This document shows positions 23,766 to 63,322 of a DNA stretch of 64,000 nucleotides, in pieces. The stretch is from Candidatus Binatia bacterium (GTDB lineage: Bacteria > Desulfobacterota > Binatia > HRBIN30). Each line of letters begins with the position of its first letter. The stretch's first letter is position 1. The stretch spans positions 1,091-65,090 of the forward strand of contig JBEKBJ010000002.1 of the NCBI GenBank assembly GCA_050015455.1. Reading direction: 5' to 3'. The position numbers were made by a program, and so were the translations under genes. The notes beneath the pieces were generated by a model. That model made no database searches, was not told the DNA's origin, and was given only the letters and a program-made list of their open reading frames with translations.

Positions 23766-24010
23766 CAGCCGCTGCACCCGTTCAGCGCGTTGTTCACGGC
23801 CGTGAGGATCTCATCGATGGTGATCTGGCCATCGTGATTCGCATCGCCGGCCTCGCAGTTGAGAAGTGGTGGGTTGCCGACGGCGATGTTCACCGTCGTG
23901 AGGGTCTCGTTGATGGTTACGCCGCTGTCGGCGCTACAGTTGCCGGTGCAGCAAGGCGTCGGCGAGATGTCGGGGGGCCCGACGTTTCCGTCGGTGTGTC
24001 GACAGTCAGC
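23766..24010 (-). pseudogene. start-less 3' remnant of a dockerin-repeat protein gene
   Basis: Reverse-strand translation reads ...TGNCSADSGVTINETLTTVNIAVGNPPLLNCEAGDANHDGQITIDEILTAVNNALNGCSG*, i.e. two dockerin-like repeats ending at a stop. No start codon and no ORF-track entry. Matches the C-termini of the ORFs at 43282-43734 and 61292-63322. Confidence 0.45.
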
Positions 24011-24487: not shown

Positions 24488-24600
24488 GTGACACCTGACC
24501 CCCGCCTCAGCCGCATCCATTGAGCGCGTTGTTCACGGCGGTAAGGATTTCACCGATGGTGATCAGGCCGTCGTGATTGGCGTCTCCGTCAATCGGTGAT
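24488..24600 (-). pseudogene. second short 3' remnant with one dockerin-like repeat
   Basis: Reverse-strand translation DGDANHDGLITIGEILTAVNNALNGCG*, near-identical at the DNA level to the end of the 23766 remnant. Confidence 0.35.
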
Positions 24601-24691: not shown

Positions 24692-24970
24692 TCACTTTCC
24701 GTTCGGCCGTCCGGCGATTCCGCGCACCGTTTCCGGCGCCCACGGCTTGCCGGTGCGGGTCGGGTGTCGTTCGGCGTTCAGCCGGTTGGCAATCGCCGCG
24801 AAGCTCAGCCGAAGGCAGAGACGCGCCAAGGTGCTGCGCCCGTCCCAAGTGGTCCGGTGCGTCGCAACCGGTGGCACCAGTGCCCAGGGAAGGCCAAGTT
24901 GACACTTTCTATTGAGACAGTTCCGTTGCTCAAACCCGCGCCGATCGCGACGCCGCACAAGGTGAATCAC
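24692..24970 (-). pseudogene. fragment of a large serine recombinase (recombinase domain)
   Basis: ...FAAIANRLNAERHPTRTGKPWAPETVRGI... matches the serine-recombinase 'Recombinase' domain pattern (LN.EGIPT..GK.W...TV..IL). No intact catalytic domain. Implies a decayed mobile element. Confidence 0.4.
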
Positions 24971-25988: not shown

Positions 25989-26439
25989 TAGCTCGCTCCA
26001 CAATGCGTCATCATCCACCTGCAATCATACCTGCACCGGCCTAATTGAAAGATAGCGTTGGGCGAATGGAGAGATCTAGCAGGAAAAACCCCATGCCATG
26101 CTTGGCCATGACCGCACGCTACCTTGAGCGCGACACCGGCCCGCTGCTCGCCACCGCGCGGCTTGCGGCGCAGCTTGTGAATCGGCGCCACACTGCGGTG
26201 TCACCCGGTCGGTCCCGTATGGCTTCCGCCTTTCACGGCGCCCTGCGGCCCGACGCTTGTGCACCCCGCCCTCGACTCCCCGACCCGTCGCGCCCGCCGC
26301 AGCACCAAGCGCACCGCTGCGCATGGCGTCCGGGCTGGACTTCGCGGCGCACGCAAGGGGGAAACCAGGACCGCCCCCCGGCACCCGGGAGACCTCGGAT
26401 TTCGGCGAAAGTATGCTGCTAGGGAAACAAGACCCGCGC

Positions 26440-26481
26440 TGGACGAGTCCACGGCACCGCTGTGCCTAGCGCGACTGCCTC
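26440..26481. repeat. 42-nt dispersed direct repeat, copy A
   Basis: tggacgagtccacGgcaccgctgtgcCtagcGcgactgcctc. Second copy at 42978-43019 with 3 mismatches. Confidence 0.8.
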
Positions 26482-26759: not shown

Positions 26760-28073
26760 TCATGAGCCGCCACGAACGGCACGCACGTAGAAGTTGTTGC
26801 TCTTAAAGTTGTAGCTCACGTGGCCGTCGTAGAAGCTCACGGTCCACGCGTAGCTTGGACTGGGCTGGTAGGTAGTGGACGACCAGTAGCCGTAGTAGTA
26901 GCCGTAGTACCAGTAGTAGTAACCGCCTGTACAACTGCAGGCTGCGCTCGTAATATCCGTACAGCCGGCTCCACAGCTCGCCCCATTGAACGCCGGGGCG
27001 ACGGAGGGATTGCTCGTCGCGCTGTCAACGAGGCTTTGCAACTCCCGGAGGTTCGGGATGCGCCAATCGTTGTGCCTAGCGAAGCTCGCCGTGTTGAGCT
27101 GCGCGACCCATTTGAAGATCGTCAGCCCATCGGGAGAAGCCGTCTGGCAGTCCGCCGCCTGACACGGTCCATTGGCCTCACAATCCGCATCCGTCCCGCA
27201 GGCTACTCCGCCCGGCCCACAGGTCCCCGACCACGGGTAACAATTGTCCGCGTCCTCCAGGTTGGCTGCGTTCACAGTCCCGTCGAGCACGTCCTTTTTC
27301 TCCCACGTGAGCCCGGTGTTGTTGTCGGTAATCGTGCCGTCGCCGTTGTCGGTGTACGCCAGAGCCACGCCTTCCTGCAGAGCTCCGTCTTGCCCCGTCC
27401 CAGAGCAGGCAATGACGTATCCATTGCCGTCCCAGCAGATCGTTTGCCCTGTTTGTAACAGCTGCGCAGGGGGCAGGGCGCCGCCCTGCCCCTGGCACGT
27501 CGCGAGATTCGCTTCGCAGGTAGCGAGCGGAATGCTTGCACAGTTCGTTTCACAGGCGCTCAGGCTCGTGTCGCACGTGCTCAGGTTCGTGTCACACGTG
27601 CTCAGACTCGTCTCGCAGGTGTTGTAGTAATCTTCATAGCTCGTGAGGTTGCTGTTGCAGTCGTTCAGATAGTCTTGCAGCGTCGATGGATCGCAGTCTG
27701 CTGCCGGTGTTCCACCAGCGAGATTGCCGCTCAGGCAGCTGGTGAAATCCGTTATCGTGCTTTGCACTGTTGACTCATCGCCGGTAGTCGGGCACGCACT
27801 TTTCGCGTTCGCCGCCGCCGTTTCCAGATTGCCCCACTGCTTGCTCAGCGTCGTCTGGCACTTGGTAATCGCCGTGTCGTACGTCGTGGCGTCGTTATTC
27901 AGTACGAACGCCTTGTTAGCCGTCTGCCGGCAGGCCGTGTACTTGCCTGCCGCATTATTCTTACCGGCCTCACACTTCTGCGGTGGCGTCGTTTTGCCAA
28001 ACGCCGTCCCGGTGCACAGCAACGCGGCGCACACCGCTGTCATCGTCACAATGGTCCTCGCTATCCGTGTCAT
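26760..28073 (-). CDS. secreted DUF1566 (Lcl C-terminal domain) protein with Cys-rich N-terminal modules
   Basis: ATG at 28073 with a GGAGGG Shine-Dalgarno. Signal peptide MTRIARTIVTMTAVCAALLCTGTAFG. C-terminal DUF1566 signature (HNDWRIPNLRELQSL ... YWSSTTY ... AWTVSFYDGHVSY...FYVRAVRGG). The N-terminus carries a 13-spaced Cys pair (CEAGKNNAAGKYTAC) like the giants' C-terminal module, plus a TCxTxLSxC mini-repeat. Confidence 0.75.
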   Translation of the reverse strand: MTRIARTIVTMTAVCAALLCTGTAFGKTTPPQKCEAGKNNAAGKYTACRQTANKAFVLNNDATTYDTAITKCQTTLSKQWGNLETAAANAKSACPTTGDESTVQSTITDFTSCLSGNLAGGTPAADCDPSTLQDYLNDCNSNLTSYEDYYNTCETSLSTCDTNLSTCDTSLSACETNCASIPLATCEANLATCQGQGGALPPAQLLQTGQTICWDGNGYVIACSGTGQDGALQEGVALAYTDNGDGTITDNNTGLTWEKKDVLDGTVNAANLEDADNCYPWSGTCGPGGVACGTDADCEANGPCQAADCQTASPDGLTIFKWVAQLNTASFARHNDWRIPNLRELQSLVDSATSNPSVAPAFNGASCGAGCTDITSAACSCTGGYYYWYYGYYYGYWSSTTYQPSPSYAWTVSFYDGHVSYNFKSNNFYVRAVRGGS

Positions 28074-28256
28074 GAAGTAACCCTCCGAGACTGTGGAAGC
28101 TGGTTGGGCTTCAGCGACCTGCCACAAGGCACTGTGAACGGGGTCCCTCGCACATTTGCGTAATACTGTACGCTAAGAACCCGCCCCACCGTTCTCCATA
28201 GCGTGCATTTCCACATCCCCCGTAAGCATCACTCGTACGCGCTTCGCCGCGGCAGC

Positions 28257-31200
28257 TCACGGCGCGGGAAGAGGGGTAGTTCCGGCGCAGTAAATTTGGC
28301 CGTCGCTGGTCTGATCGATGAAGCTGATCATCGCATCGGCCAGCGCGCCCTGGGCCGTCGCATCGAGACAGGACGGACAGATCAACGCCTTCTGCTTGTT
28401 CACCGTTGCCGTCTTGGCGAGCACCGCCGCTTGCGCCTTGTCGTACGCGGCGCGACAGGAGGTCGGCGTGCCGCTTCCCTCTTCGCACGCTTGGACATTG
28501 AATGACTTGCTCTTGAGTGCCGCGTCAGCATCCTTTTTCTGGCAGCTGGTGATGCATCCCGCCAGTGTTCGCAGATTTCTGGAGACCGTGTCTTCACACG
28601 CACCGGTGTTCTTGTCCGGCGGTACGTATCCCGGGTTGCCACTCGGGAAACCGGCGGTGCCCGCGCAGTAGATTTGGCCGTCGAGCTGCTCCACGACGCT
28701 CATCGCCGACTCCGCCAAGGCGGTCTGCGCCGTGGCACCCAAACAGCTCGGGCAGATCGGCTGCTTTACCCCCTTCACCCTCACTGTCCTCGCAAGCACC
28801 GCCGCTTCCGCCTTGTTGTACGCGGCGAGGCAGGAGATCGGCGTGCCGGTTCCCTGCTCGCACGCCATTTCGTCAAAGGATTTGTTTTGCAGCGCGTAGT
28901 CAGCCTCCTTCGTTTGGCAATTGGCCGTGCAGACTACGAGTTTCTTTATGTTCTTCGCGACCGTATCTTCGCAGCTATCCGCGCTGGAATTGGGAGGCAC
29001 CATAGCCTCCGGCGTGTACGTTGGGGTCGGCGTGTTGGTCGGCGTCGCGGTCGCTGTCGGGGTGACTGTCGGGGTGTTGGTGATGGTCGGCGTTTGAGTC
29101 GGCGTGTTGGTAATCGTCGGCGTCTGCGTTGGCGTGTTGGTAATCGTCGGCGTTTGCGTCGGTGTATTGGTAATCGTCGGCGTCTGCGTTGGCGTATTGG
29201 TGATGGTCGGCGTTTGCGTCGGTGTATTGGTAATCGTCGCCGTCCGGGTCGGGGTGTTCGTGATCGTCGGGGTTAGGGTCGGGGTGTTGGTGATGGTCGG
29301 CGTTTGGGTCGGGGTATTGGTGATGGTCGGCGTTTGAGTCGGCGTGTTGGTAATCGTCGGCGTCCGAGTCGGGGTGCTGGTAATGGTCGGCGTCTGCGTC
29401 GGCGTGCCCGTTGGGGTGTTGCTGGCCGTCGGCGTCGGGGTGTTCGTCCGCGCGTTGGTCGGGGTGGCGGTTGCGGGGCTTGCGGGTGCGGGTGTGGGCG
29501 TGGCCGCCGCCGAGTTCGCCTCGAAGGCGCCGATGGAGCAGTTGGTGGCACCTGTACCGGGCCGGACGAAGCCGCGTTGGTCGAGGTTGTCCACGGGCGC
29601 GGTACCGGTGGTCGTCGAACAGACGCTCTCGTTGCCGGCATTGATCGCGGGGCTCGCCCCCGTGCATCCCGCGCTGGGGGCACCTGTGCCTGTACAGAGG
29701 GCGACCGTCTGCGTTGGGCCGCCGTTGCTCTGGCGCCCGGTGGGGTCGAGAACAGGGTTCGTGTTACAGAACGAGCTGCCGCTGGTAGTGGTGCAGCCGG
29801 TGCCCGTGAAACCACACGTCGTGCCGTCGTCGATGTTGTGGCCGCCATCAGTCACGGGACCGGCGCAATTGCCGCCCGAGCTGCTGGCGACTATCGTGTT
29901 GATGGCCGTCACGGTGCCGCCGTCGTTCTGGATAGCGCCGCCGCCCGTGCCCGCGCTATTGCCGGCGAAGGTGCTGTTGGTGACGGTCAGCGTCCCGCTG
30001 TTGGAGATGCCGCCGCCGCTGTCGGTCGCACTATTGCCGGAGAAGGTACTGTTGGTGAGCGTCAACGTGCTGCCGCTGTTATTGTTGATGCCGCCGCCGT
30101 AAGCGCTCGCGCTATTGCCGGCGAAGGTGCTGTTGGTAACCGTCAGCGTGGCGCCGTAGTTATTGTAGATACCGCCGCTGTAGCTCGAGCTATTGCCGGA
30201 GAAGGTGCTGTTGGTGACCGTCAGCGTGGCGTTGTTAAAGATGCTGCCACCGTAGTCTGCCGCGCTATTGCCGGAGAAGGTGCTGGTGGTGACCGTCAGC
30301 GTGCCGTTGTTGGTGATGCCGCCGCCGAAGGCGCCGGAGATATTGCCGGAGAAGGTGCTGTTAATGAGCGTCAGCGTGCCGTTGTTGGTGATGCCACCCG
30401 CGGCGCCCGCGTCATAGCCCTTGGCGATGGTCAGGTTCTGAACCGTGAAGTTGACGCCAGAGTTTACGGAGAAGACGCCCACCTTATTCCCGCCGCTGAT
30501 GGTGATCAGACTCCCACCGTCAATGGTCGTGTCGGTGCCAATAGTTTTGGTGCCGGTGACGGTGATCGTGGCGGCGCCGCCGCAGTTGAAGGTCACGTTA
30601 TGGCCGAAACTCCCGCCGCCGGGGAGGCAGGCAGTCAGCGCCGCCTCAGTGCAGCTCGTCCCCGTGCCGGTGCCCACCACGCACGCCGGGGCCGCTGTGG
30701 GTGTTGGCGGCGCGGTCGGCGTTATGGTGGGTGGCGTCGCCCCCATTGCCGCCAGCAGATTCCCTGCATCGGGGCTACCAAGACCGGTCACCATGTCGTA
30801 ACCGACGCCAGCGCTGTACGCGCCGTTCGAACCGCTGGTGATGTCATGGAAGGCGGAGCTGCCACACAACCCGTACAGCAGCGCACCCGGATTCCCGAGG
30901 CCACTGCCACCAACTCCCTCGTTCAAATCAGCGAACAAGCCGGCCCATTGTGGCGCCGCGTCGGAAGTGCCGCCGACGATGTACCACCCGAAGTCGAACG
31001 CAAGGTAGTTGCCGGGGGACGGATTGGCTGCCAAGGCCACATCGGGCACCAAGCGCTGGGTTCCGCTTGGCACGGCGCATCCGGTTTGAAACGCGGGGCG
31101 TGAAAACACCTGACTGATGCCCCCGCCCGAGCCGCTCCAACCGCTCTCAGAGCCGTATCCGCCACAGCCCGGGCTCGAGGAGGTCATGCCGCCGCTGCAG

Positions 31201-32348
31201 CTCGGCGTGGTCCCGCCAACTCCCATCACGTGCGGAGAATTGGCCGGATGATCCAAACAATTGCTCCCGTTGTCACCAGACGCAGCGAACCAGGTCTGCC
31301 CAATCGCGTTGGCGTTGGCGAAGATGCCGTCATTCGTTTGCTGCGTGGCCGCGGACGTGCCCGCTTCACAGCTTCCCCAGCTCGTGGTGACCACGTGGCC
31401 GGGGTTGTCGGTCACGATGCGGTTGTACAGCGTGGTGAAATCCGACAACGCGCTCGAGGCCGCCATGTAGTTGAGAATGACGGCGCCCGGTGCGGTGCCG
31501 TGCGCGTACTCAACGTCCAAGGAAACCTCGTCGGAGGGGTTGTTGAACGTACAACCGCTGGACCCAATCGCGCCAGTGCACACCTGGCCACTGCCACTCG
31601 GCAGCGCGGGCAGCCCCCATTGCGAGTCGAATGTGGCGACATCGGTGTCCAACCACGCGTAGGCTCCCGCGATCACCAGCGTCTGGCCCGCCCCCGCGTA
31701 GGTGCCGCCGTTGTCGTAGAATACCGCCAGGTCGTTCGGACTCAGGGCGCAGCAGTACGATCCGAACGCGGCACCGGGGGCGAGCGCGGGTTGTGTGCTC
31801 CGGCGGACGTTCGTGTGCATGCTGACGAGATCATCCAGACCGAGGATGCCCACGACGTCGCCGGCGATCTCGGCTGGCCACGTGGGTTCGTTGATGGCCG
31901 CGTAGTGTGTCTCCCCCCCGAAGATCACTCGGTAGGACTCCACGCCAAAGGCGTGTTCGAGCGCCGCAACACCGCCGACCGCTCCAACCAGCAGCCGATT
32001 GGAGAAGCGGTCGGTTACGGTAAAACCGTTGCCTGCGAGGTAGTCCACCACACCCTGCTCTGCATCGGCCGCCGGCGCATAACGGGCGTTGAATTCGTCT
32101 TGGGTCAGGAACTGACCGTATTGCGGGGAGTCAGGATTCTGCACCTCGGCGAGAAACCGTTCCAGGTCATCGCGATTTCTGAGCTCGAGGCCAACGACGA
32201 TGCTATGGCGAGTGGCGGGATGTTCGCGTTCCAGGATTGTCGCCTCGCCGAGGCGGGGGGACGTTGAATGTGCACGAGCGTACACGGGCGCTTGCAACCC
32301 CAGCGCTAGCAGTACGCCCGTCACCACGCTCGCAGCATTGATCCTCAT
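28257..32348 (-). CDS. giant secreted multidomain protein: signal peptide - propeptide/S53 sedolisin peptidase - CSLREA/Pmp-type beta-helix - Thr/Pro tandem-repeat linker - 2x novel 8-Cys C-terminal module
   Basis: 1363 aa. Signal peptide [25 protein letters not shown]53 motifs [10 protein letters not shown] (oxyanion Asp) and [14 protein letters not shown] (catalytic Ser). CTEAAL... followed by NSTFSGNSA beta-helix repeats. [10 protein letters not shown] repeats encoded by 30-nt tandem repeats. Tandem C-terminal modules [19 protein letters not shown]...ICPSCL...DGQIYCAGT. Confidence 0.85.
29060..29400. repeat. perfect/near-perfect 30-nt tandem repeat array (~10 units) encoding the [10 protein letters not shown] linker
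   Basis: Units such as ggcgtgttggtaatcgtcggcgtctgcgtt repeat head-to-tail inside the CDS. Confidence 0.8.
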
Positions 32349-32614
32349 GCTCTCTCCTCGGCTGATCGCACTACTTCAGCTCCAAGCTTAAAATCTCGGT
32401 TCATGCGGATAGCCTGCATAAAGCACCAAGTTGACGTAAGCCCCGAGTATCAGACATGGCCAGACCCCCCGCAGCCGCGCGAAAATCTCAGACAGCTACC
32501 CGTATACGGCGCGGACTGGCGCGGACAAACCGTCTGTCAATCGTCGCGACTTTGCGAGACACGACACTAGTGTTCTCATATTGCTCCCCTTTCCCGTAGA
32601 CGCGGGTAGTTGAC

Positions 32615-35600
32615 CTACGGCAGTGGGACGGTCCCCGCGCAGTAAATTTGGCCGTCGCTGGTCTGACCGATGAAGCTGATCATCGCGTTGGCCAGCGCGC
32701 CCTCGGCCGTGGCATCGAGACAGGACGGACAGATCGCCACCTTCTGCCCGTTCACCGTTGCCGTCTTGGCGAGCACCGCCGCTTCCGCCTTGTCGTACGC
32801 GGCGCGACAGGAGATCCGCGTGCCGGTTCCCTCGCACGCTCGGACATCAAATGTCTCTTTCTTGAGCGCCGCGTCAGCCTCCTTTTTTTGGCAGCTGGTG
32901 ATGCATCGCGCCAGTGTTCGAACATTTCTGGAGACCGTGTCTTCACACGCACCGGTGTTCTTGTCCGGCGGTACGAAGCCCGGGTTACCACTCGCGAAAC
33001 CGATCGTGCCCGCGCAGTAGATTTGGCCATCGAGTTGGTGCACGACGCTCGTCGCCGAGTCCGCCAAGCCGTTCTGCGCCGTGAGGCCCAGACAGGCCGG
33101 GCAGATCGGCACCCTCTTCTTGTTCACCGTTGTCGTCCGCAAGAGCACCGCCCATTGTGCCTCGTCGTACGCGGCGCGACACATTCCCTCGCACGCCATT
33201 TCGTCAAAGGATTGGTTTTTCAGCGCGTAGCCGGCCTCCTTCGTTTGGCAATTGGCCGTGCAGACTACGAGTTTTTTTATGTTCTGCGCTACCGTATCCT
33301 CGCACGTATCCGTACTGGAATTCGGGGGCACCATGGCCTCCGGCGTCGCCGTGGGTGTGGGCGTTGCCATCGGCGTCCCTGTTGGGGTGTTGGTCGGCGT
33401 CGCAGTTGGTGTTGCCGCTGGGGTGCTCGTCGGCTCGGCGCATACCCCGCCGGCACACGTTCCACTGCGGCATTGGGAGCCGGCGGTGCAGCTCGTTCCA
33501 TCGTTGCAGTCATTGGTCTGCCCGCAGCACGAGTTGCTGTCGCAGGCGCCGCCGGTGCATTGCGACGCGCTCGTGCAGCCCGACCCATCACCGCAGTTGG
33601 CGATGCAGGCTGCGGCGTTCGCCTCGAAGGCGCCGATGGAGCAGTTGATCGCGCCCGCACCGGGCCGGACGAAGCCGCGTTGGTCGAGATTGTCGACGGG
33701 CGCGGTGCCGGTGGTCGTCGAACATACGCTTTCGTTCCCATTGTTGATCGCTAGGCTTACTCCGGTGCACGAGGCAGGAGAACCCACGCCGGTACACAAA
33801 GCGATGGTTTGGGTCGGCCCACCGTTATCTGCCAAACCCGCCGGATCGAGCATCGGGTCGAACGCACCGATGGTTGTGCCACACGTCGTGCCGGGGAATT
33901 GCAGGTTGTGGCCGCCGTCAGTGATGCCGCCGCCACCGATGCCACTGTCGGCGCAGCCGCCCGCCAGGATGGTGTTGATGACGGTTGGCGGCGTGGTTCC
34001 CAGGTCGGTGGCGATGCCGCCGCCGCTATTGCCGGAGAAGGTGCTGTTGGTGATCAAGGTCGAGCCCTGGCTGAAGATGCCGCCGCCGGAGCCCGCGCCA
34101 TTGCCGGAGAAGGTGCTGTTGGTGACCGTCACCGTGCGCTGGTTGTAGATGGCGCCGCCGACGTAGACCGCGCTATTGCCGGAGAAGGTACTGTTGGTGA
34201 CCGTCAGCGTGCCCACGTTGAGGATGCCGCCGCCGCCGTTGCCGGTGCTAAGCGAGCTATTGCCTGAGAAAGTGCTGTTGGTGACCGTCACCGTGCCACC
34301 TCCGATGAGGATGCCGCCGCCGGAGCCCGCTGATCCGTTGGCGATCGTCAGGTTCTGGACCGTGAAGTTGGCGGCAGGCACGGAGAAGACGCCCACGCTG
34401 TTCCCGCCGCTGATCGTGATCAGACTCCCGCCGTCAATGGTGGTGTCGGTGCGAATGGTCTTGGTGTAGGTGACAGTAATCGTGGCAGCACCCCCGCAGT
34501 CGAAGGTCACGGTGCCGCCGCCGAGGAGGCAGGTGTCCAGCGCGAACTCGGTGCAGCTCACCCCCGTGCCGGTGCCCACGACGCACGCCAGGGCGCGCGT
34601 CGGTGTTGGCGTTGCGGTTTCGGTCGGGGTGTTGGTCGGCGTCCGGGTCGGTGTATTGGTCGGTGTGGCCGTCGGGGTGTTGGTTGCGGTTGGTGTCTGA
34701 GTCGGGGTCTTGGTCGACGCCTGGGTCGGTGTATTGGTCGGTGTGGGCGTCGGGGTGTTGGTCGCGGTTGGTGTCTGAGTCGGGGTGCTGGTCGACGTCT
34801 GAGTCGGCGTGCTGGTTGGCGTCACCGTCGGGGTGGTCGTCAGGGTCGCGGTGGGAGTCGCGGTTGCGGTTGGCGTCGCGGTTTCGGTCGGCGTCGGGAT
34901 CGGGGTGGCCGGGCTGAGCTCGGCCACGAAGGCGTTCGATCCGCCGTTGGCGGCAGCATTGTTGGTGCTCTGGAAGGCATTCAGGGTGGGGAAGTTGTTC
35001 GACCACGCAAAGCCCGTGACGTAGGCGTTGCCGGAGGAATCGACCGCGATGCCGTTGCCATAGTCCCAGAAGCTTCCGCCCAAGTAGGTCGAATAGAGCA
35101 GCGATGCCGCTCCCGACGCCGATGGGTTGAGCTTGGCCACGAAGGCTTCGATTTCGCCGTTGTAGCTCAAGCCGTTCAGGGTGGGGAAGTCGGGCGAGGC
35201 GGTAGATCCCGTGACGTAGGCGTTGCCGGAGGAATCGACCGCGATGCCGTGGCCAGAGTCGCCGTTATTGCCGCTGCCGCCGAGGTAGGTTGAATAGAGC
35301 AGCGACGCCGCTCCCGACGCTGACGGGTTGAGCTTCGCCACGAAGGCGGTACCAGCGTTACTATCGCCGGCGTCGGGGACGTTGTTGGTGCTTTGGAAGG
35401 CGTTCAGGGTGGGGAAGTTGGCCGAGGCCGTATTTCCTGTGACATAGGCGTTGCCGGAGGAATCGACGGCGATGCCGTAGCCATAGTCGCCACGAAAGGC
35501 CGGGCCAAAGCCTTGGAAGCCTTGGCCAATGTTGCCGCTGCCGCCGAGGTAGGTCGAATAGAGCAGTGACGCCGCTCCTGACGCTGCCGGGTTGAGCTTG

Positions 35601-37687
35601 GCCACGAAGGCGGTATACGCGTTATCGGGGCTGGCGTTGGCGGCGGCATTGTTGGTGCTCTGGTAGGCGCCCGCAGTGACGGGGAACGCAACGCACGTGC
35701 CGGTCCCGTTCCCGGTGCAGCAATAAGCAGGTGTGTCGGAGCCGGTACAACTGGAGTTGCCGATCGAGGTCGTCCATCCCGTGACGTAGGCGTTGCCGGA
35801 GGAATCGACCGCGATGCCGGTGCCAGAGTCGTAGACGCTGCCGCCGAGGTAGGTCGAATAGAGTAAGTCCGCCGCGCCTGTTCCCGCCGGGTTGAGCTTG
35901 GTCACGAAGGCGTTCTCGGTGGCATTAAGCGTGCTCTGGAAGGCGTTCAGGGTGGGGAAGTCGGCCGAGCCCGTATATCCTGTGACGTAGGCGTTGCCGG
36001 AGGAATCAACCGCGATGCCGTTGCCAGAGTCGTACACGCTGCCGCCGAGGTAGGTCGAATAGAGCAGTGATGCCGCTCCTGACGCCGACGGGTTGAGCTT
36101 GGCCACGAAGGCGTTAACAAGGCCGGCGTTGGTGCTCTGGAAGGCGCCCGCAGTGACAGGAAACGCCATGCACGTGCCGGTTCCCGCCCCAGCGCAGCAA
36201 GTCTGAGGTACGCCCGAGCCGGTACAACTGGAGTTGCCGATCGAGCTCGTAACTCCCGTGACGTAGGCGTTGCCGGAGGAATCGACCGCGATGCCGTAGC
36301 CAGAATCGCCGCCGCTCCCGCCGAGGTAAGTCGAATAGAGCAGCGATGCCGCTCCCGACGCCGACGGGTTCAGCTTGGCCACGAAGGCGTTACCAAGGCC
36401 GGCGTTGGTGCTCTGGAAGGCGTTCAGGGTGGGGAAGTTGGTCGACTCCGTATATCCTGTGACGTAGGCGTTGCCGGAGGAATCGACCGCAATGCCGGTG
36501 CCATAGTCGCCGTCGCAGTTATATTCACCACAGAAGACGCCGCTGCCGCCCAAGTAGGTCGAATAGAGCAGCACCGGATCGATCACAATCGGCTTGCTCC
36601 GGTCGTAACTCGCCAGCTTAAAGCCCGCCTCGTCCGCGCCCCGGATCACCCATCCGCCCGCGATCGTTTGCTCCTTGCCGCCTGTAGTCTCCTGATAAAT
36701 CTCCGGCGCGTGCTCGATGAGTTGGTTCTTGCCCGCGCTCACGACCAGATCGCCCCGCTTATTCAGCGCGAGCTTGCGGACGCCCTTGAAGCTGAGCCGG
36801 ATCGCTTTCGGATCGGCGCCCGGCGCAAGCCGGAAATCGTACTCAAGCCGGGCCTGCTCGCTGCCGTGGTAGATGAGATCGATTCCGGGATAGACCTCCT
36901 TGAGCTCGACCTTGGCGTAGTTGGGAACATCGGTGTGCCACTGCTTGGGGTCGTTGCCGATGAAATAGTTGGACTTGCCCACCATCCGCTCGAGGCCGCC
37001 GATTTGCGACGCGCGCGCCGCCCCCTTGAGCGCGATCCGCACCACCGCCGCCTCCGCCTCAGCAGCTTTTTTCCTGTCATTCCTGCGTGTGGCTGCCGCG
37101 CGAGAGCCTGTCCCTTCGACAAGCTCAGGGCGGGCTCTGAGGCCGCCGAAGGAAATCCCCGATGCGGGCCCCCTCGACTTCGGAGACTTCACTCGCGATG
37201 ACTGAAAAGAATCAGGGCGACCGGGGAAAAAAGAGTGTGCGCCTTCCGGCGCGGGCGACCGCATCGCAATCACCGCCTCGCCGGGCGTGATGAACAGCGT
37301 GTAACCCTGCCCGTGCGATAGGAACTTGACCCGCGGATCGCTCTGGCCGAGGTTCGGCTCGAAGCGCATCGGCAGCTTTACGAGCGATAGGTGCGGCGGA
37401 CGATTCGGCGCGGAGGGCGCGTGCGACCGTCTGCGTCGGCCCGCCGTTGTCCTGGAGCCCGGTGGGGTCGAGAACGGCTCTTCTCCCAGCTGCTGACCGC
37501 CTGGCTGCTGTGCACCGGGCGGCGCACGGTGACCGACACGCTGCGCTGTCAGTGTGCGGGACGGACAGGTTTCACTGCCAGTGCCCACGACACACGCCAG
37601 GGCGCGCGCGGGCAGAGTGAGACATGGCAGGAGCAGAGCCAGCCCTAAGCCGCTGCATCGCAGTTGACCGCCGAAACGTGTGCTCAT
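32615..37687 (-). CDS. giant secreted multidomain protein: signal peptide - SBBP beta-propeller repeats - Thr/Pro linker - CSLREA/Pmp-type beta-helix - Cys-rich knot - linker - 2x novel 8-Cys C-terminal module
   Basis: About 1690 aa from the ATG at 37687 (signal peptide [31 protein letters not shown]). About nine SBBP-type repeats ([34 protein letters not shown]). A beta-helix region starting SCTEFAL. A CX-rich segment [30 protein letters not shown].... The C-terminal ~700 nt is ~90% identical to the 3' end of 28257-32348. Confidence 0.85.
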
Positions 37688-38185
37688 CGGGCACCTCTTT
37701 TCCACCGATATCTCCCAGACAGGCCGCTGCCCGGCGTGTGTGGTTGGCAAATCGAGGCTCGCACGCTTGCCCCCGACGAGACCGTCGTATCCCGCGTGCA
37801 GGCCACCGGACGTCATCCGAGGCCGATCATGTTGACATACGGTCGCGGTGATTACACCCTACACCCTGTGGCGTCAACCAAAATCGTCACAGTGGCCGTA
37901 CAAATCACGCAAGAGATGACCAATGTCAGTGTGGACTCCGTAAACTTACGGAGTTTTGACCTCACAGACGGTCACCATCCTTCCCCCGTCCTTCCTCCCG
38001 AATCGCAATCACCGTCATCGGCGCAGCGGATCGGTGTCGCCAGAGCCGTCATCTCCGACTTTGAGGACGACGACTTCGAGGGCGACGCGCTCGGGCTCCT
38101 CCAATGGATCGCTGGCGCACTCGACAAGACCGTCGAGATCTGCGTAATGCCGCGGAAGACCAAGCGGCACGCCGCGTGAGCAGTC

Positions 38186-38253
38186 CACCGATCGTCTCTG
38201 CGGACCCGCGCAGTCGGAATCTACGGCTTTGTCAGCACTCGGCGATCAAACCG
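38186..38253. repeat. 68-nt dispersed direct repeat, copy A (overlaps the GH108 stop codon)
   Basis: caccgatcgtctctgcggacccgcgcagtcggaatctacggctttgtcagcactcggcgatcaaaccg. Second copy at 43914-43980. Confidence 0.75.
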
Positions 38254-38773
38254 CCACCGTATCCGTCCCAATGCCGGCCCGCACCGTCTGCACTCGGTTG
38301 AGCCAGCCCTTCAGGAACCGCGACTGGTCAGGCCGGGCCTCTACAATCTCTCGGTAGAACTGCGCCCGTTCGTTACAGAGCGCTTGGGCGAGTTGCGCCG
38401 GGTCGCGGGCGGCGACTGCTGCGAGAGTACGAGGTCCGATAATGCCGTCCACTGCCACCCTGACCGCCGCCTGGAGAAGACGCGCCGCGCGCGCCACGCC
38501 CACATTCACGCAGGAATCGAAGTGGACGGCATCGAGCGGCTCACGCAGGTCAGCACATTTTCCTGGGATCCAGTACTGGTCGTAGTAGATGCGCCGGACC
38601 TCATCGTCCGTGATGTTGGCCACCGATTGCGGCAGGGCATCGATCGACGCCCGAAAACGGTCGTACGTGGCTTGCGTGATCCCCTGGTTGGTGGCGCCGC
38701 CCCGGTCGGCCGGATCGTCGACGAATCCCCCCTCCAGATCGAGCGTAAGCGCCAAAGCCTTGTCGAAGCTCAT
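38246..38773 (-). CDS. GH108 N-acetylmuramidase with C-terminal peptidoglycan-binding (PG_binding_3) domain
   Basis: LTLDLEGGFVDDPADRGGATNQGITQATYD is the GH108 catalytic signature. 175 aa, the typical two-domain lysozyme. No signal peptide. Confidence 0.85.
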   Translation of the reverse strand: MSFDKALALTLDLEGGFVDDPADRGGATNQGITQATYDRFRASIDALPQSVANITDDEVRRIYYDQYWIPGKCADLREPLDAVHFDSCVNVGVARAARLLQAAVRVAVDGIIGPRTLAAVAARDPAQLAQALCNERAQFYREIVEARPDQSRFLKGWLNRVQTVRAGIGTDTVAV

Positions 38774-39141
38774 CGCTACCTGCGCCTGGGCTTATCGTGG
38801 TCTGCTCATGGAGCGCATGAAACACGGTACTGAGTATGTGGCGACACCCCAGCCACATGTTGGCAGGCTGTAGCATGGGAAGCTGGGGATCGGCAACAAG
38901 GGTTTCACTTTACCGTCTGCATCCGCGCCAACGCTGCCAAAGACACGAGGCACCGACTTTGCCCAACGATTCGGAAGGTCGGCCATGGGAGCCCGGCGTG
39001 AGGGCACGGCTCCACTATGCGCGCCTTTTGGGGCGGCCGGGCTGTGAGCCCGCCTTTCTCGGCAAAGCCCCCTGGATCGCAGGTTAACAACGCCCCGCCG
39101 TGGATTTTCGCTCGCAGAAGGGCTTGGCCAACCCTCCGCAA

Positions 39142-39380
39142 CGGCGGAGGCGGGGGTGAACGGCGTGGTCAGACCCGTCGCAACGAATGTATGCCTAAGA
39201 TTTCGCTGTCCGCGTCATTACTATGGCTGAGGCGGGGGGAAACAGCTTGGTCGGACGCGTTGCAACCAATGCGTGCCTAAGATTTACGCTGTGCGAAGCG
39301 TCCCGACGGCGGAGGCGGAGGTGAACGGCGCGGTCAGGCCCGTCGCAACGGATGCGTGCCTAAAATTCAGGCGTTCCAGG
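39142..39380. repeat. three tandem copies of a degenerate ~82-bp repeat in a 1.3-kb intergenic region
   Basis: Units begin cggcggaggcgg(g/a)ggtgaacggcg(t/c)ggtcag(a/g)cccgtcgcaacg(a/g)atg(t/c)(a/g)tgcctaa(g/a)att... at about 39142, 39226 and 39306, ~80% identical. Confidence 0.7.
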
Positions 39381-40090
39381 GCTCCACACTGAAAAAACTC
39401 GATCGGATACGGGCGCCGTACTACACCCTAGGTGTTGTGTACCATAGCCTGAGGTTGCCTTCTTCCGGCTACCCCAGGCCGCAAGCGCGGCGCGTGTTCG
39501 CCCTGGGTAGCCGCCGAAAAGACGCGGCAAGGGTCCGCGACCCAACCCAGGGCTATGTTGCGCAACGCCTTCGGCGTAGGGCTGTGTCTGTCGAAGCATT
39601 GTGATTGTTCAGCACACTGTGAAGCGGTCAGCAAGCAGTTCTCCGCTTTGATTGTTCAATCTTGTGAACTCTCCATGATGTCAACTTCACCAGCTTTTCG
39701 GGGGCCTTGCCCCACAAGAGCGGGCTGGGAGTAGCCCGGCGAAAGGCGCGGTGTTCTGAAGTCGGCGTGCCCTCACGTTGCGGCTCGATGGTTAATGTAG
39801 GCCACGTTTTGTGGGCAATTTCGCTGTGTTCAGCCTTCCGCACTCGTGGTGAAATGGTGGCGAACCATTTGTGAGTGGAAATCCGGCAGGTGACCGCTCC
39901 ACCGGTGTTGCCGCACATAGCAAGGGCAGGCTTCTATGGTGTATCCAGTGCCCAGCCGGTACTCACGTGGCACTAGTACGAAATAAACTTACAATGATGT
40001 ACAGTCGGCCAAAGATCGACGCGCCGTATGGCGCACAATGGTTTGGCAAGTGGTTTGCACAGCGACGCCCTCTCAGAAAGGAGAGGCGGT

Positions 40091-43281: not shown

Positions 43282-43734
43282 CTAGTGGCTGCACCCGTTC
43301 AGGGCGTCGTTCACGGCCGCAAGGATTTCGTCGACGGTGATGTACCCATCGTGGTTGGCATCTCCGGCATTGATCGCCGGGCTGGCCGTACTGCTCGTGC
43401 AGGACGCGTTGGGTATATCAATGCCGCCGCATAGCGCGATGGTTTGAGTAGGCCCGCCGTTGTTCTGGAGCCCGGTAGGGTCGAGAACAGGGTTCGTGTT
43501 ACAGAACGAGGTGCCGGTCGTGGTGGCGCAGCCGGTGCCCGTGAAGCCGCACGTCGTGCCGTCGTCGATGTTGTGGCCGCCATCAGTAACGCTGCTGCTG
43601 AACATGTCGTTCGCCCAATTGCCGCCCGAGGTGCTATTGGCGACGATCGTGTTGGTAAGCGTCAGCGGGCCGCCGTCGGTGTAGACGGCGCCGGCGTCGC
43701 CCGCGCTATTGCCGGAGAAGGTGCTGTTGGTCAC
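43282..43734 (-). pseudogene. 5'-truncated paralogue of the beta-helix/dockerin surface-protein family
   Basis: 150-aa ORF starting inside a beta-helix repeat ([20 protein letters not shown]...). It has the conserved [18 protein letters not shown]...[24 protein letters not shown]...PAINAGDANHDGYITVDEILAAVNDALNGC end. Similarity to the beta-helix repeats stops at about 43736, with no upstream signal peptide or enzymatic head. Confidence 0.55.
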
Positions 43735-61291: not shown

Positions 61292-63322
61292 TCAGCCGCC
61301 GCCTGACCGACGTACGCTTATCAACGGGACACTGGAGTTGTCGCAGAACTGACCCACCGGAGCGCAAGGGGGCTGCCAACATCCATTCAACGCGTTGTCC
61401 ACTGCGGTGAGAATCTCATCCACCGTGATCTGGCCGTCGCCGTTGGCATCACCCGCCTGACACGCGGCCATCGGCGCGTTTCCGAGGGCCATATTCACCA
61501 TAGTCAGAATATCATCGACCGTGACCTGACCGTCGCCGCTACAGTCGCCCACGCACACGAGCGGCAGAAGGGAGACGACGACAAAACCGTCGGAGCCCAC
61601 CGTGTTGGAGAGCTGCACACCCTGCGGGCTGTACGCGGCAGCATTGCCAATTGACAGGCGATACGTACCTGGCAACGCGGAAGGGGCAACGCTGAAGATG
61701 CAGGTGTACAGGGTTCCGTCCGGCATGGGGCTGGTGTTCTGAGCGGACTGAACGAAGAATCGCAAGGTTTTTGTGGATACATCGTCCTGCACAACACTCG
61801 CGACAAGCAACTTGCCGATCGCCGGGTTGACTTGGCAGTCGGAGGGATCGAGGCCGAGGATGCCAGGGTCAAAGCTAATGTCGTTGCCGGTGGCCGCGAC
61901 GCTCGTCCCGGACGACCTGAGCGACACCGCCACCGTGACCGTGTCTCCCGGCAAGCCGTTGGCCGATCCAATATCCATATGCACAATGCGAGGCGTTGGG
62001 GTTAGTGTCGGGGTGGGGGTTCGCGTCGGCGTCTGGGTGGCCGTTGGCGTCACCGTAGCCGTTCGCGTCACAGTTGGCGTCGGCGTGATCGTGCGGGTTG
62101 GCGTGATCGTGCGGGTTGCTGTCGGAGTGTCGACCACGCAAAGTAGTGTGCTCTCGCACGTGGCGCCGTAGAGCACAGTGCAGTCCCCGCACGAACCGTT
62201 GATTGGGGCAGCGCAGCTTGTCGGACACTGACAGCAGTCTGAAGCTCCGGCTGGAGGTCCGGGCGAATTAAACTCATAGGCGCCGATCGAACAACTGGTT
62301 GCGCCAGTACCGGGCCGGATGTACCCGCGCTGGTCGAGGTTGTTCACGGGCGGTGCGGCGCAAATTGTCTCATCACCAGCGTCGATTGCCGGGCTGCCGG
62401 CTTGGAGGGCAATGGTTTGGGTCGGTCCGCCGTTGTTTGCTAAACCCGCTGGGTCAAGCATCGGGTTGGTCGCAGGACCAACACCACACGTCCCATCCGA
62501 GTCCAGGTTATGGCCGCCATCAGTAACGCCGCCGGTGCCGGCGCAATTGCCGCCCGCGGCGCTATTGGCGACGATAGTGTTCGTGACCGTCAGCGGGGTT
62601 TTGCTGTTGTAGATGCCGCCGCCGTAGTCGCCCGCGCTATTGTCGGAGAAGGTGCTGTTGGTGACCGTCACCGTGCCGTCGTTGAGGACGGCGACCTCGC
62701 TGAAGATGCCGCCGCCGAGGGTCGCCGCGCTATTACCGGAGAAGGTGCTGTTGGTGATGGTGACCGTGCCGCTCTCGTTTCCGATGCCGCCGCCGCCGTA
62801 GTTGTAGTTGCCGTGTGTGCTATTGCCGGAGAAGGTGCTGTTGGTGACCGTCAGCGTGCCGTAGTAGTTGTAGATGCCGCCGCCGACTACGGCGCTATTA
62901 CCGGAGAAGGTGCTGTTGGTGATGGTGACCGCGCCCGAGTAGTTGAAGATGCCGCCGCCGCCTTCGCCGCTGGTCCCGTTTGCGATGGTCAGGTTCCGGA
63001 CCGTGAACGTGACGCCAGTGCTCACGGAGAAGACGCCCACGCTGTTCCCGCCGCTGATCGTGATCAGACTCCCACCGTCAATGGTGGTGTCGGCGCTGAT
63101 GTACTTCGTGCTGGTGACGGTAATCGTGGCGGCGCCCCCGCAGTTGAACGTGAGGTCGCCGCCGCCCGCAAGGGCCGCGTCCAACGCGGCTTCGGTGCAG
63201 CTGCCAGGGGTGCCGGTCCCGACGACGGCGTCACCGCGCGCGGGTCGGGGCGACCATGCAACGAACGCCACCACCGCGAACGTCGCGGCAATGCCGGCCC
63301 ATTGTGGCACGTGTGGGGTCAT
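61292..63322 (-). CDS. secreted beta-helix surface protein with Thr/Pro linker, cohesin-like domain and two C-terminal dockerin-like repeats
   Basis: Signal peptide MTPHVPQWAGIAATFAVVAFVAWSPRPARG. CTEAALDAALAGGG...[11 protein letters not shown] start. NSTFSGNSA Pmp-type repeats. TPTxT linker. Cohesin-like segment (IVHMDIGSANGLPGDTVTVAVSLRSSG...TLYTCIFSVAPSALPGTYRLSIGNA). Repeats GDCSGDGQVTVDDILTMVNMALG and GDANGDGQITVDEILTAVDNALNGC. Confidence 0.85.
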   Translation of the reverse strand: MTPHVPQWAGIAATFAVVAFVAWSPRPARGDAVVGTGTPGSCTEAALDAALAGGGDLTFNCGGAATITVTSTKYISADTTIDGGSLITISGGNSVGVFSVSTGVTFTVRNLTIANGTSGEGGGGIFNYSGAVTITNSTFSGNSAVVGGGIYNYYGTLTVTNSTFSGNSTHGNYNYGGGGIGNESGTVTITNSTFSGNSAATLGGGIFSEVAVLNDGTVTVTNSTFSDNSAGDYGGGIYNSKTPLTVTNTIVANSAAGGNCAGTGGVTDGGHNLDSDGTCGVGPATNPMLDPAGLANNGGPTQTIALQAGSPAIDAGDETICAAPPVNNLDQRGYIRPGTGATSCSIGAYEFNSPGPPAGASDCCQCPTSCAAPINGSCGDCTVLYGATCESTLLCVVDTPTATRTITPTRTITPTPTVTRTATVTPTATQTPTRTPTPTLTPTPRIVHMDIGSANGLPGDTVTVAVSLRSSGTSVAATGNDISFDPGILGLDPSDCQVNPAIGKLLVASVVQDDVSTKTLRFFVQSAQNTSPMPDGTLYTCIFSVAPSALPGTYRLSIGNAAAYSPQGVQLSNTVGSDGFVVVSLLPLVCVGDCSGDGQVTVDDILTMVNMALGNAPMAACQAGDANGDGQITVDEILTAVDNALNGCWQPPCAPVGQFCDNSSVPLISVRRSGGG

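What the first reader, a model, noticed from the sequence alone, without database searches (positions are those of the whole stretch)
26760..38773. Operon-like array of a GH108 muramidase, two giant modular secreted proteins and a DUF1566 protein
Four co-oriented minus-strand genes sit in order: a GH108 muramidase, a ~1690-aa SBBP beta-propeller giant, a 1363-aa S53 sedolisin giant and a DUF1566 protein. The two giants have completely different N-terminal heads. They share a common C-terminal half: a CSLREA/Pmp-type beta-helix, Thr/Pro linkers encoded by perfect tandem repeats, and a tandemly duplicated ~115-aa 8-Cys module I cannot assign to any family. A diverged copy of that module (the same 13-residue Cys spacing in CEAGKNNAAGKYTAC vs [15 protein letters not shown]) forms the N-terminus of the DUF1566 protein. 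A cytoplasmic-looking lysozyme-type muramidase heads the array. The whole block sits between dispersed repeats and an integrase remnant. I read this as a head-swapping surface-display, adhesion or polymorphic exo-enzyme system. The GH108 may locally open the wall for export. The shared Cys module may serve as a common anchor or partner-binding domain.
Basis: partly seen in the sequence, partly recalled or inferred. Interest (0 to 1): 0.85.

Follow-up and report, generated by a model that had tools for sequence, protein, structure and literature searches.

The report
Secreted giants sharing an unclassified tail
Two very large secreted proteins of an uncultured soil-type bacterium (probably Candidatus Binatia) carry different working "heads" on the same recently shared rear half, which ends in a pair of small disulfide-stapled helical domains from an undescribed family; the lysozyme and lectin genes beside them are just neighbours, not parts of one machine.

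Summary
The four minus-strand genes and their domains are real: a GH108/PG_binding_3 muramidase, a DUF7948+SBBP giant, a pro-kumamolisin (S53) giant and an Lcl_C/DUF1566 protein. The two giants share a 3' cassette at 81-90% nucleotide identity: beta-helix, choice-of-anchor Q, Thr/Pro linker and two ~117-aa 8-Cys modules.

The module matches nothing in Pfam, NCBIfam or PDB sequences. It belongs to a real family of 651 cluster representatives among 1.84 billion proteins, found mostly in Candidatus Binatia MAGs. 84% of members have exactly two copies. The AF2 model (pLDDT 86) is a three-helix bundle, and Cys co-absence gives the disulfide map C1-C6, C2-C5, C3-C4, C7-C8. The pair sits on at least 56 different Pfam head families, sometimes at the N-terminus and often alone after a signal peptide.

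In about 70 module loci from other genomes and metagenomes there is no GH108, Lcl_C or D-type N-terminal domain within reach. The GH108 is a phage-endolysin type. The claimed module copy in the DUF1566 protein is only weakly supported (hhalign P~0.004, probability 8%).

My verdict is a recombination-shuffled paralog cluster of secreted proteins with a new promiscuous accessory domain, probably for binding or anchoring. It is not a four-gene export or display system.

The parts
32618..37687 (-). Giant B (1690 aa from M44; the ORF extends to 37816). Order of domains: signal peptide, 77-aa remnant linker, DUF7948, SBBP propeller, TP linker, beta-helix, choice-of-anchor Q, Cys-rich knot, TP linker, two 8-Cys modules.
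   Evidence: ORF. Pfam and NCBIfam domains. Coordinates.
37367..37687 (-). 5' end of B. Sec-type signal peptide (37598-37687), then '[13 protein letters not shown]' (a beta-helix cap), then a frame-shifted '[18 protein letters not shown]' remnant of a choice-Q domain. I read this as the captured 5' end of another beta-helix gene.
   Evidence: 37423-37475 is 91% identical to 29701-29753 in C. Three-frame translation. The same signal peptide + cap occurs as a broken pseudogene in L019, and 37576-37978 matches L019 2690-3095 at 86.5%.
34712..37363 (-). Head of B: DUF7948 (36572-37363) plus the SBBP beta-propeller region (34712-36571).
   Evidence: PF25778 1.1e-56 and PF06739 1.1e-64, 7 stretches.
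28257..32348 (-). Giant C (1363 aa). Order of domains: signal peptide, pro-kumamolisin activation domain, S53 catalytic domain, beta-helix, choice-of-anchor Q, long TP linker, two 8-Cys modules.
   Evidence: The identical protein is on 7 public contigs.
30747..32222 (-). Head of C: sedolisin (S53) prodomain (31830-32222) and catalytic domain (30747-31748).
   Evidence: PF09286 1.9e-23. phmmer against pro-kumamolisin 1t1e gives 2.7e-38, with '[10 protein letters not shown]', 'ASGDNGS' and 'GGTSDAAP' aligned to the catalytic motifs.
29517..30716 (-). Shared beta-helix (75-nt coding repeats 'NSTFSGNSA...') plus the choice-of-anchor Q domain of C. The paralogous block in B is about 33609-34618.
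   Evidence: Direct-repeat families D4, D7 and D12-D14, 81-86% identical between B and C. NF041518 at 28.6 and 33.9 bits against a cut-off of 25.
29016..29495 (-). Thr/Pro linker of C, including the 30/60-nt tandem repeat at 29068-29406 ([10 protein letters not shown] units). Its length is polymorphic between metagenomes.
   Evidence: TRF: 11.3 copies, 83% matches. The units differ at synonymous sites. L026 has +150 nt here.
28260..29015 (-). Tandem pair of 8-Cys three-helix-bundle modules of C (module 1 at 28638-29015, module 2 at 28260-28643).
   Evidence: phmmer domains. Alignment A1. AF2 pLDDT 86. Family search.
32618..33349 (-). Tandem pair of 8-Cys modules of B (module 1 at 32993-33349, module 2 at 32618-32992). 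85-90% nucleotide identity to those of C.
26763..28073 (-). Protein D (437 aa from M19). Order of domains: signal peptide, 4-Cys three-helix bundle (27702-27995), Cys-containing heptad repeats 'LSTCDTN' (27483-27701), Lcl_C/DUF1566 head (26772-27338). An Lcl-like lectin or adhesin architecture. It is an adjacent gene with no conserved link to B and C.
   Evidence: PF07603 1.9e-27. AF2 pLDDT 92.6 for the N-terminal domain. Homologues P0168, P0179, P0186 and P0193 have the same architecture. Public gene call is 437 aa.
38246..38773 (-). GH108 + PG_binding_3 muramidase (175 aa, no signal peptide). Phage-endolysin type. A neighbour, not a conserved component.
   Evidence: Absent from all other module loci.
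61292..63322 (-). Sibling 676-aa protein with the same beta-helix + choice-of-anchor Q chassis and a TP linker, but with a dockerin-like EF-hand pair tail instead of the modules. It shows that the tail is exchangeable.
   Evidence: tblastn 50% identity over 373 aa. Translation. NF041518 5.8e-19 and Dockerin_1 at 22.6 bits against a cut-off of 22.9.
43282..43734 (-). Fragment of a further beta-helix/choice-Q gene with a dockerin-like tail (pseudogene debris).

Best explanation
The region is a cluster of paralogous genes for exported, modular, disulfide-rich proteins. The host is an uncultured bacterium, probably Candidatus Binatia.

Giants B and C are built on one exchangeable rear cassette: right-handed beta-helix, choice-of-anchor Q domain, Thr/Pro linker, and a tandem pair of ~117-aa modules. 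Recombination between paralogs has mounted different heads on this cassette. One head is an S53 sedolisin protease. The other is a DUF7948/SBBP beta-propeller.

Each module is a three-helix bundle stapled by four disulfides (C1-C6, C2-C5, C3-C4, C7-C8). It belongs to an unclassified, largely Binatia-restricted family. The pair behaves as a promiscuous, non-catalytic accessory unit. It is almost always present in two copies, usually at the C-terminus behind a flexible linker, and also occurs alone.

The most likely mechanism, which is inferred and not shown, runs as follows. After Sec export and oxidative folding, the pair binds a common ligand. That ligand could be a cell-envelope or matrix component, or a partner protein. 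The linker then holds the catalytic or binding head away from the attachment point. This is the same job that the dockerin-like tails do on sibling beta-helix proteins in this window.

The GH108 gene is an orphan phage-type endolysin. The DUF1566 gene is an Lcl-like lectin or adhesin. Both are neighbours by chance or loose functional clustering, not components.
For: Shown:
- Gene and domain content.
- The shared cassette is 81-90% identical in DNA while the heads are unrelated.
- Traces of recombination: a collapsed beta-helix/Q remnant fused in frame at B's 5' end, with its pseudogene counterpart in L019; the B-module1/C-module2 chimera P0001; gene debris with dockerin-like tails.
- Related arrays of module-tailed genes with other heads. 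L019 has at least three giants. L015 has three genes, including a phytase-like one. L012 has two M35 aspzincins.
- Family size and taxonomy: 651 representatives at E<=1e-3. Seven of 10 genome loci are titled Candidatus Binatia, two 'Deltaproteobacteria'/'delta proteobacterium' and one Margulisiibacteriota.
- Among the 164 members fetched, 138 have exactly 2 copies. 70 are C-terminal with a head, 69 are modules only, 20 are N-terminal and 5 are internal.
- 56 Pfam families occur among 82 heads, and none occurs in more than 5.
- Cys co-absence in 279 modules: C2 and C5 are lost together 98 times and never singly; C1/C6 and C3/C4 are lost together.
- A sibling chassis carries a dockerin-like tail.
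- The choice-of-anchor naming logic: such domains sit in surface proteins that carry alternative anchors (10.1101/2023.03.06.531300).
- No GH108, Lcl_C or D-type domain near module genes elsewhere.

Inferred: binding or anchoring as the function, export route, and identity of the ligand.
Against: - No ligand, partner or localisation is known for any family member.
- The fold is generic and gives no functional clue.
- About 40% of the fetched members are modules only (some may be contig fragments). That fits a free binding protein as well as an anchor.
- The conserved CPxC at a helix start could instead point to a redox or metal role.
- P0036 combines beta-helix/Q, Lcl_C and the module pair in one polypeptide, and a second Lcl_C gene lies 2.4 kb downstream of it. 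A functional affinity between DUF1566 and module proteins is therefore not excluded.
- Co-transcription of the four genes was not testable. The promoter and terminator scans did not exceed the shuffled expectation.
- The taxon of the window itself is inferred only from the family's distribution.
Confidence: 0.65

Rival explanations
1. The four genes form one export or display system. The GH108 opens the peptidoglycan for passage of the giants. The shared Cys module docks onto the related N-terminal domain of the DUF1566 protein, which acts as the anchor or scaffold.
For: - The four genes are co-oriented and adjacent.
- The arrangement is stable in at least 5 metagenome assemblies.
- D's N-terminal domain is also a three-helix bundle. 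Its Cys residues are collinear with module C1, C2, C5 and C6, and profile similarity is weak (P 0.004; 1 of 200 shuffles).
- P0036 joins Lcl_C and the module pair in one protein.
Against: - Those assemblies are 99.8-99.9% identical, so they are one population and not independent evidence.
- There are no GH108, Lcl_C or D-type domains in L001-L019 or in 57 further metagenome module loci; the only Lcl_C association is in L020-L022. This includes the closest relative, L019, where another giant occupies the GH108 position.
- The GH108 is an endolysin type without a signal peptide.
- The intergenic gaps are 430-560, 266 and 184 bp.
- hhalign probability is only 6-8%.
Confidence: 0.06
2. The tandem module is a C-terminal sorting or secretion signal, analogous to the T9SS CTD, PEP-CTERM or LPXTG. 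A dedicated machinery would recognise and possibly remove it.
For: - The module lies at the extreme C-terminus in 139 of 164 members: 70 with a head and 69 with modules only.
- It follows a choice-of-anchor domain, whose relatives carry such signals.
- The conserved terminal motif is 'YCAGTTPLP'.
Against: - 25 of 164 members have the pair at the N-terminus or internally, followed by large domains.
- It is a 2 x 117-aa folded, disulfide-stapled helical domain with no transmembrane segment.
- No NCBIfam sorting-domain model hits B or C.
- No conserved neighbouring machinery genes were seen.
Confidence: 0.1
3. The module pair targets substrates rather than the cell. It would act like a carbohydrate-binding module, binding an environmental polymer such as plant, fungal or humic material, or a mineral surface, and bringing diverse enzymes to it.
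For: - The Thr/Pro linker plus terminal non-catalytic module architecture is typical of CBM-bearing exo-enzymes (general knowledge).
- The heads include proteases, phytase-like esterases, lactonase/SGL propellers and cupredoxins.
- Stand-alone secreted pairs exist.
Against: - An all-helical three-helix bundle is unusual for CBMs, which are mostly beta-sandwiches (general knowledge).
- There are no aromatic platform motifs among the conserved columns.
- Many heads are non-enzymatic propellers or adhesin-like beta-helices.
Confidence: 0.17

Closest known systems
Dockerin-tailed or CBM-tailed modular exo-proteins (cellulosome-type architecture: head, Pro/Thr linker, small terminal non-catalytic module)
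   Same: Diverse heads sit on a flexible Thr/Pro linker that ends in a small duplicated non-catalytic module. In this window, sibling beta-helix/choice-Q proteins carry a dockerin-like EF-hand pair in the same position.
   Different: The module is a disulfide-stapled three-helix bundle, not an EF-hand pair or a beta-sandwich. It has no Pfam match. No cohesin-like partner has been identified. The pair can also be N-terminal or stand alone.
Choice-of-anchor domain proteins (NCBIfam NF041518, choice_anch_Q)
   Same: B, C, the 676-aa sibling, P0030 and P0036 all score above the curated cut-off. The concept predicts alternative anchoring tails on one chassis, and that is what is seen here: module pair versus dockerin-like tail.
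   Different: The known alternative tails are LPXTG, PEP-CTERM and T9SS sorting domains. The 8-Cys module pair is none of these.
Legionella collagen-like protein Lcl (N-terminal helix, repeat stalk, DUF1566 head)
   Same: Protein D has an N-terminal helical domain, a repetitive stalk and a C-terminal Lcl_C/DUF1566 domain. Lcl is a secreted, surface-associated trimeric adhesin (PMC11162425).
   Different: D's stalk is made of Cys-containing heptads, not collagen repeats. Its N-terminal domain is a 98-aa 4-Cys three-helix bundle. No trimerisation or glycan binding has been tested.
Chlamydial Pmp / CASH-type beta-helix surface proteins
   Same: Repeats of the 'GGA(I,L,V) / FxxN' type, and weak Chlam_PMP and POMP_repeat hits in siblings. 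Beta_helix PF13229 hits in B.
   Different: There is no autotransporter beta-barrel. The beta-helix is internal and followed by choice-Q, the linker and the module pair.
Phage GH108 endolysins
   Same: GH108 + PG_binding_3 architecture, phrog_315 at 5e-49 and up to 47% identity to phage lysozymes.
   Different: It is isolated in a chromosomal context with no holin or other phage genes detected nearby.

Membership tests
GH108 muramidase (PF05838) with PG_binding_3 | Match to both Pfam models above the gathering score; N-terminal EGG(Y/F) catalytic motif | tested here: met
   88.2 bits (cut-off 21.2) and 67.9 bits (cut-off 24.6). 'LDLEGGFVDD' is present in the translation.
Holin-associated N-acetylmuramidase equivalog (NF040573) | Score above the curated equivalog cut-off (240 bits) | tested here: not met
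   80.6 bits against a cut-off of 240. Related, but not that equivalog.
Sedolisin / kumamolisin (MEROPS S53) | Pro-kumamolisin activation domain plus a catalytic domain with the Glu-Asp-Ser triad and oxyanion Asp | tested here: met
   PF09286 at 83.7 bits. The alignment to 1t1e (2.7e-38) conserves E/D in 'DEVSLDVE', D in 'SGDNGS' and S in 'GGTSDAAP'.
DUF7948 + SBBP beta-propeller proteins | Full-length DUF7948 match followed by multiple SBBP repeats | tested here: met
   PF25778 covers 1-214 of 214 at 192.6 bits. PF06739 has 7 stretches at 214 bits.
Choice-of-anchor Q (NF041518) | Domain score above the curated cut-off of 25 bits | tested here: met
   B 33.9, C 28.6, the 676-aa sibling 68.1, P0036 62.1 and P0030 34.2 bits.
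Lcl_C / DUF1566 (PF07603) | Full-length domain match above the gathering score | tested here: met
   96.3 bits against 34.9, profile positions 1-117 of 117.
Known C-terminal sorting domains (T9SS CTD, PEP-CTERM, LPXTG, GlyGly-CTERM) | Model match; obligate extreme C-terminal position; transmembrane or signature motif | tested here: not met
   The only NCBIfam or Pfam sorting-related hit on the tails is TIGR04212 at 16.5 bits against a cut-off of 295. 25 of 164 family members have the pair at the N-terminus or internally. The model is a soluble helical bundle.
Dockerin type I (PF00404), tested on the 8-Cys module | Duplicated EF-hand Ca-binding segment; Pfam match | tested here: not met
   No hit even at E<=10. 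The fold is a three-helix bundle. In contrast, the sibling 61292-63322 scores 22.6 bits against 22.9.
8-Cys module family, tested on the N-terminal domain of protein D | Significant sequence or profile match to the module; the 8-Cys pattern | tested here: inconclusive
Polymorphic toxin / effector systems | Conserved N-terminal trafficking region, variable C-terminal toxin tip, adjacent immunity gene | tested here: not met
   The polarity is reversed, with variable N-terminal heads and a constant C-terminal tail. No toxin or immunity families were detected.
Single operon of the four genes | Co-transcription | not testable with these tools
   The gaps are 430-560, 266 and 184 bp. Consensus promoter and terminator scans did not exceed the shuffled expectation.

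The most novel reading that the evidence does not exclude
The tandem 8-Cys three-helix-bundle pair is the docking half of a previously unrecognised, Binatia-specific surface-assembly system. It would be functionally parallel to cohesin-dockerin. The pair would bind a cognate helical partner. Candidates are the distantly similar 4-Cys bundle at the N-terminus of Lcl-like DUF1566 lectins such as protein D, or the abundant stand-alone signal-plus-pair proteins. This would tether dozens of different enzymes and binders to the cell surface or matrix.
Probability: 0.1. Interest if true: 0.7.

Novelty: new variant of a known kind. Interest (0 to 1): 0.4.

Why it matters
Candidatus Binatia is a widespread, uncultured soil and peat lineage, and its extracellular biology is essentially unknown. 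This work defines a domain family that is absent from Pfam, NCBIfam and the PDB. It gives the family a confident fold, a disulfide map, a strict two-copy rule and a catalogue of more than 50 attached head families. That provides a concrete handle for finding how these bacteria position proteases, esterases, propellers and adhesins outside the cell. It also supplies a compact, disulfide-stabilised tag that could be tested as a binding module. Finally, it removes a tempting but unsupported "four-gene machine" annotation.

Tried and rejected
- Foldseek against afdb50 was unavailable.
It was repeated with 7 sequences.
- The PDB sequence search with the module profile gave only a chance hit at E 0.11.
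- Pfam at E<=10 on the module pair and on D's N-terminus gave only sub-threshold noise.
- The consensus promoter and terminator scan and Rfam gave nothing usable for transcript structure.
- Prophage context for the GH108 was rejected. Only the endolysin itself and a recombinase fragment hit PHROGs.
- Ancient positional specialisation of module 1 versus module 2 was rejected. Within-protein identity is 45%, while between-protein identity is 35-36% whatever the position.
- A redox or metal role of the CPxC motif was considered but could not be tested.
- A literature search found no description of the module or of this gene combination.
Full report
**What is at the coordinates**

Four minus-strand ORFs lie at 38246-38773 (A, 175 aa), 32615-37816 (B), 28257-32348 (C, 1363 aa) and 26760-28127 (D).
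- A matches Glyco_hydro_108 and PG_binding_3 in Pfam.
- B matches DUF7948, seven SBBP repeats and Beta_helix in Pfam, and choice_anch_Q (NF041518) in NCBIfam.
- C matches Pro-kuma_activ and NF041518. Its residues 47-534 align to pro-kumamolisin 1t1e (E 2.7e-38) with the catalytic Glu/Asp, oxyanion Asp and Ser motifs conserved.
- D matches Lcl_C, the current Pfam name of DUF1566.
- B, C and D have Sec-type signal peptides if B starts at M44 (37687) and D at M19 (28073). This is my reading of the translations. Public gene calls give 437 aa for D but 1584 or 1476 aa for B.
- A has no signal peptide.

**The shared rear half**

BLASTP aligns B 692-1733 with C 192-1361, while the heads are unrelated. 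In DNA the shared blocks are 81-90% identical. Examples are 28267-28481 vs 32619-32833 at 90% and 28483-28782 vs 32832-33131 at 85%, with the rest in families D11-D14.

The Thr/Pro linker of C holds an 11-unit 30-nt tandem repeat at 29068-29406. The peptide [10 protein letters not shown] is repeated exactly. Every DNA unit differs at synonymous positions, so "perfect" holds only for the protein. One metagenome copy (L026) has 150 nt more here.

**The module**

Each giant ends in two ~117-aa units with eight Cys. They match nothing in Pfam even at E<=10, nothing in NCBIfam, and nothing in PDB sequences.
- A word-seeded search found 22 relatives.
- An exhaustive profile search of 1.84 billion representatives found 651 at E<=1e-3 and 148 at E<=1e-30.
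- Of 10 genome loci, seven are titled Candidatus Binatia, two 'Deltaproteobacteria'/'delta proteobacterium' and one Margulisiibacteriota. The best of them is only 57% identical to the query. The window's own species is therefore not in that genome set, and its taxon is inferred.
- Of the 164 members fetched, 138 have exactly two modules. 70 carry the pair at the C-terminus behind a head, 69 are little more than a signal peptide plus the pair, 20 have it at the N-terminus and 5 have it internally.
- Among 82 members with extra domains, 56 Pfam families occur and none occurs in more than five proteins. They include propellers of many kinds, cupredoxins, beta-helices, Kelch, FG-GAP, TSP1 and EGF. 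M35 aspzincins and a phytase-like esterase appear in L012 and L015.
- AlphaFold2 on a 30-sequence alignment gives pLDDT 86 and pTM 0.78. The model has a long helix, a short helix, a third helix, a beta-hairpin and a final helix.
- In 279 aligned modules, C2 and C5 are absent together 98 times and never singly. C1/C6 and C3/C4 are also lost in pairs. This implies disulfides C1-C6, C2-C5, C3-C4 and, by elimination, C7-C8.
- The two modules of one protein are more alike (45%) than modules of different proteins (35-36%), whatever their position. This points to concerted evolution or repeated duplication of a unit that must be double.

**Evidence for shuffling**

- B's 5' end encodes a signal peptide followed by '[13 protein letters not shown]', which is the cap that begins the beta-helix in B and C. 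An out-of-frame '[18 protein letters not shown]' follows, 91% identical in DNA to the choice-Q segment of C.
- The same signal peptide and cap occur as a broken pseudogene in L019. That contig comes from a related organism, with 77-94% nucleotide identity in shared parts.
- L019 carries at least three giants ending in the same module pair: an SBBP giant, a 2093-aa beta-helix giant and the BNR-like-headed P0030.
- P0001 is a B-module1/C-module2 chimera. It may be an assembly artefact or a real recombinant.
- The window also holds a 676-aa sibling (61292-63322). It has the same beta-helix + choice-Q chassis and a Thr/Pro linker, but a dockerin-like EF-hand pair at the end. A fragment of another such gene lies at 43282-43734, and there is further dockerin-like debris.
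- This is what the "choice-of-anchor" label implies: one chassis with alternative tails.

**Are GH108 and DUF1566 part of it?**

- tblastn with A, the Lcl_C half of D and the N-terminal half of D found nothing in L001-L018 (up to 10 kb each side of the module genes) or in L019. It also found nothing in 57 further metagenome loci totalling 369 kb, of which 28 are at least 5 kb.
- The only link is P0036. It unites beta-helix/Q, Lcl_C and the pair in one protein, and a second Lcl_C gene lies 2.4 kb downstream of it.
- The A-B-C-D order recurs in several metagenomes. Those contigs are 99.8-99.9% identical to the window, so they represent one population.
- A is a phage-endolysin type (phrog_315, 5e-49; 441 phage records match, best 47% identity).
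- A is separated from B by 430-560 bp. It is flanked by an ORF-free 1.25-kb stretch with 83-nt repeats and by a 60-nt dispersed repeat.

**Is D's N-terminus a module copy?**

- Direct comparisons are not significant: BLAST E=2 and HMM -1.8 bits.
- D's domain has its own family, represented by P0023 and P0166-P0193. Several of its members share D's architecture of signal peptide, 4-Cys domain, Cys-containing heptads and Lcl_C.
- Profile-profile comparison of the two families gives probability 6-8% and P 0.004-0.007. One of 200 column-shuffled controls reached the observed score.
- In the forced full-length alignment, D's four Cys fall on C1, C2, C5 and C6. These are two complete inferred disulfides.
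- I rate homology as possible (about 40%) but unproven.

**Protein D**

D resembles the Legionella adhesin Lcl in layout: an N-terminal helical region, a repetitive stalk and a DUF1566 head. Lcl is secreted, surface-associated and trimeric (PMC11162425).

**Mechanism proposed**

Shown:
- B and C are modular proteins on a common, recombining cassette.
- The tail is a folded, disulfide-stapled, two-copy accessory unit attached promiscuously to extracellular heads in one bacterial lineage.
- The tail is interchangeable with a dockerin-like tail.

Inferred:
- The pair binds a common ligand, either a cell-envelope or matrix component or a partner protein. The Thr/Pro linker then presents the head away from the attachment point.
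- A C-terminal sorting signal is unlikely, because the pair can be N-terminal or internal and is a soluble folded domain.
- A CBM-like substrate-targeting role remains a serious alternative.

**Novelty and score**

The architecture is a known kind: a head, a linker and a small terminal module. The terminal module is an uncatalogued family with a distinctive two-copy rule, so I call this a new variant of a known kind. The four-gene "system" is not supported. I found no literature on the module or on this gene combination. Interest is 0.4.

Noticed in passing
window 38774-40027 (repeat at 39141-39367): An ORF-free stretch of 1.25 kb lies upstream of the GH108 gene. It contains an 83-nt tandem repeat (2.8 copies, 75-89% identical). 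No Rfam family matches it.
   Followed up: partly
window 26435-26481 / 42973-43019 and 38186-38245 / 43914-43972: Two short dispersed intergenic repeats (47 nt at 91%, 60 nt at 88%). One copy of each lies just downstream of D and of the GH108 gene. The other copies lie near the beta-helix gene fragment at 43.3-44.0 kb. They may be REP-like or terminator elements.
   Followed up: partly
window 41084-42925 (-): A 613-aa protein with a signal-anchor-like N-terminus. It has 15 or more 21-nt tandem repeats (42333-42764) encoding AAPQPQH/AAPERRQ heptads, followed by a Tyr/Trp/Pro/Gly-rich region. It has no Pfam or PHROG match.
   Followed up: partly
window 23765-23893, 24510-24588, 24692-24970: Debris zone. 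Two orphan dockerin-like tail fragments (GDANHDGQITIDEILTAVNNALNGC) sit next to a 92-aa Recombinase-domain fragment. This suggests past rearrangement at the edge of the cluster.
   Followed up: partly
L026 versus window 29068-29406: The Thr/Pro-linker repeat of gene C is 150 nt (five units) longer in one metagenome assembly of the otherwise 99.8% identical population. The linker length is therefore polymorphic.
   Followed up: yes
L015 4509-13998 and L012 6075-10696: Other Binatia-type genomes also hold tandem arrays of module-tailed genes. L015 has three in a row, one with a phytase-like head. L012 has two consecutive M35 aspzincin proteases.
   Followed up: partly
window 33420-33600 (B residues ~1402-1463) and P0030: An extra Cys-rich knot ('[34 protein letters not shown]...') lies between the choice-Q domain and the linker in B. 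It is present in P0030 and absent from C. It has no family match.
   Followed up: no
window 46164-50072 (-) and 51539-52615 (+): A large hybrid histidine kinase (7TM, multiple PAS domains, HisKA/HATPase and two receiver domains) and a receiver-HATPase protein lie 8-13 kb from the cluster. No link to the cluster was examined.
   Followed up: no
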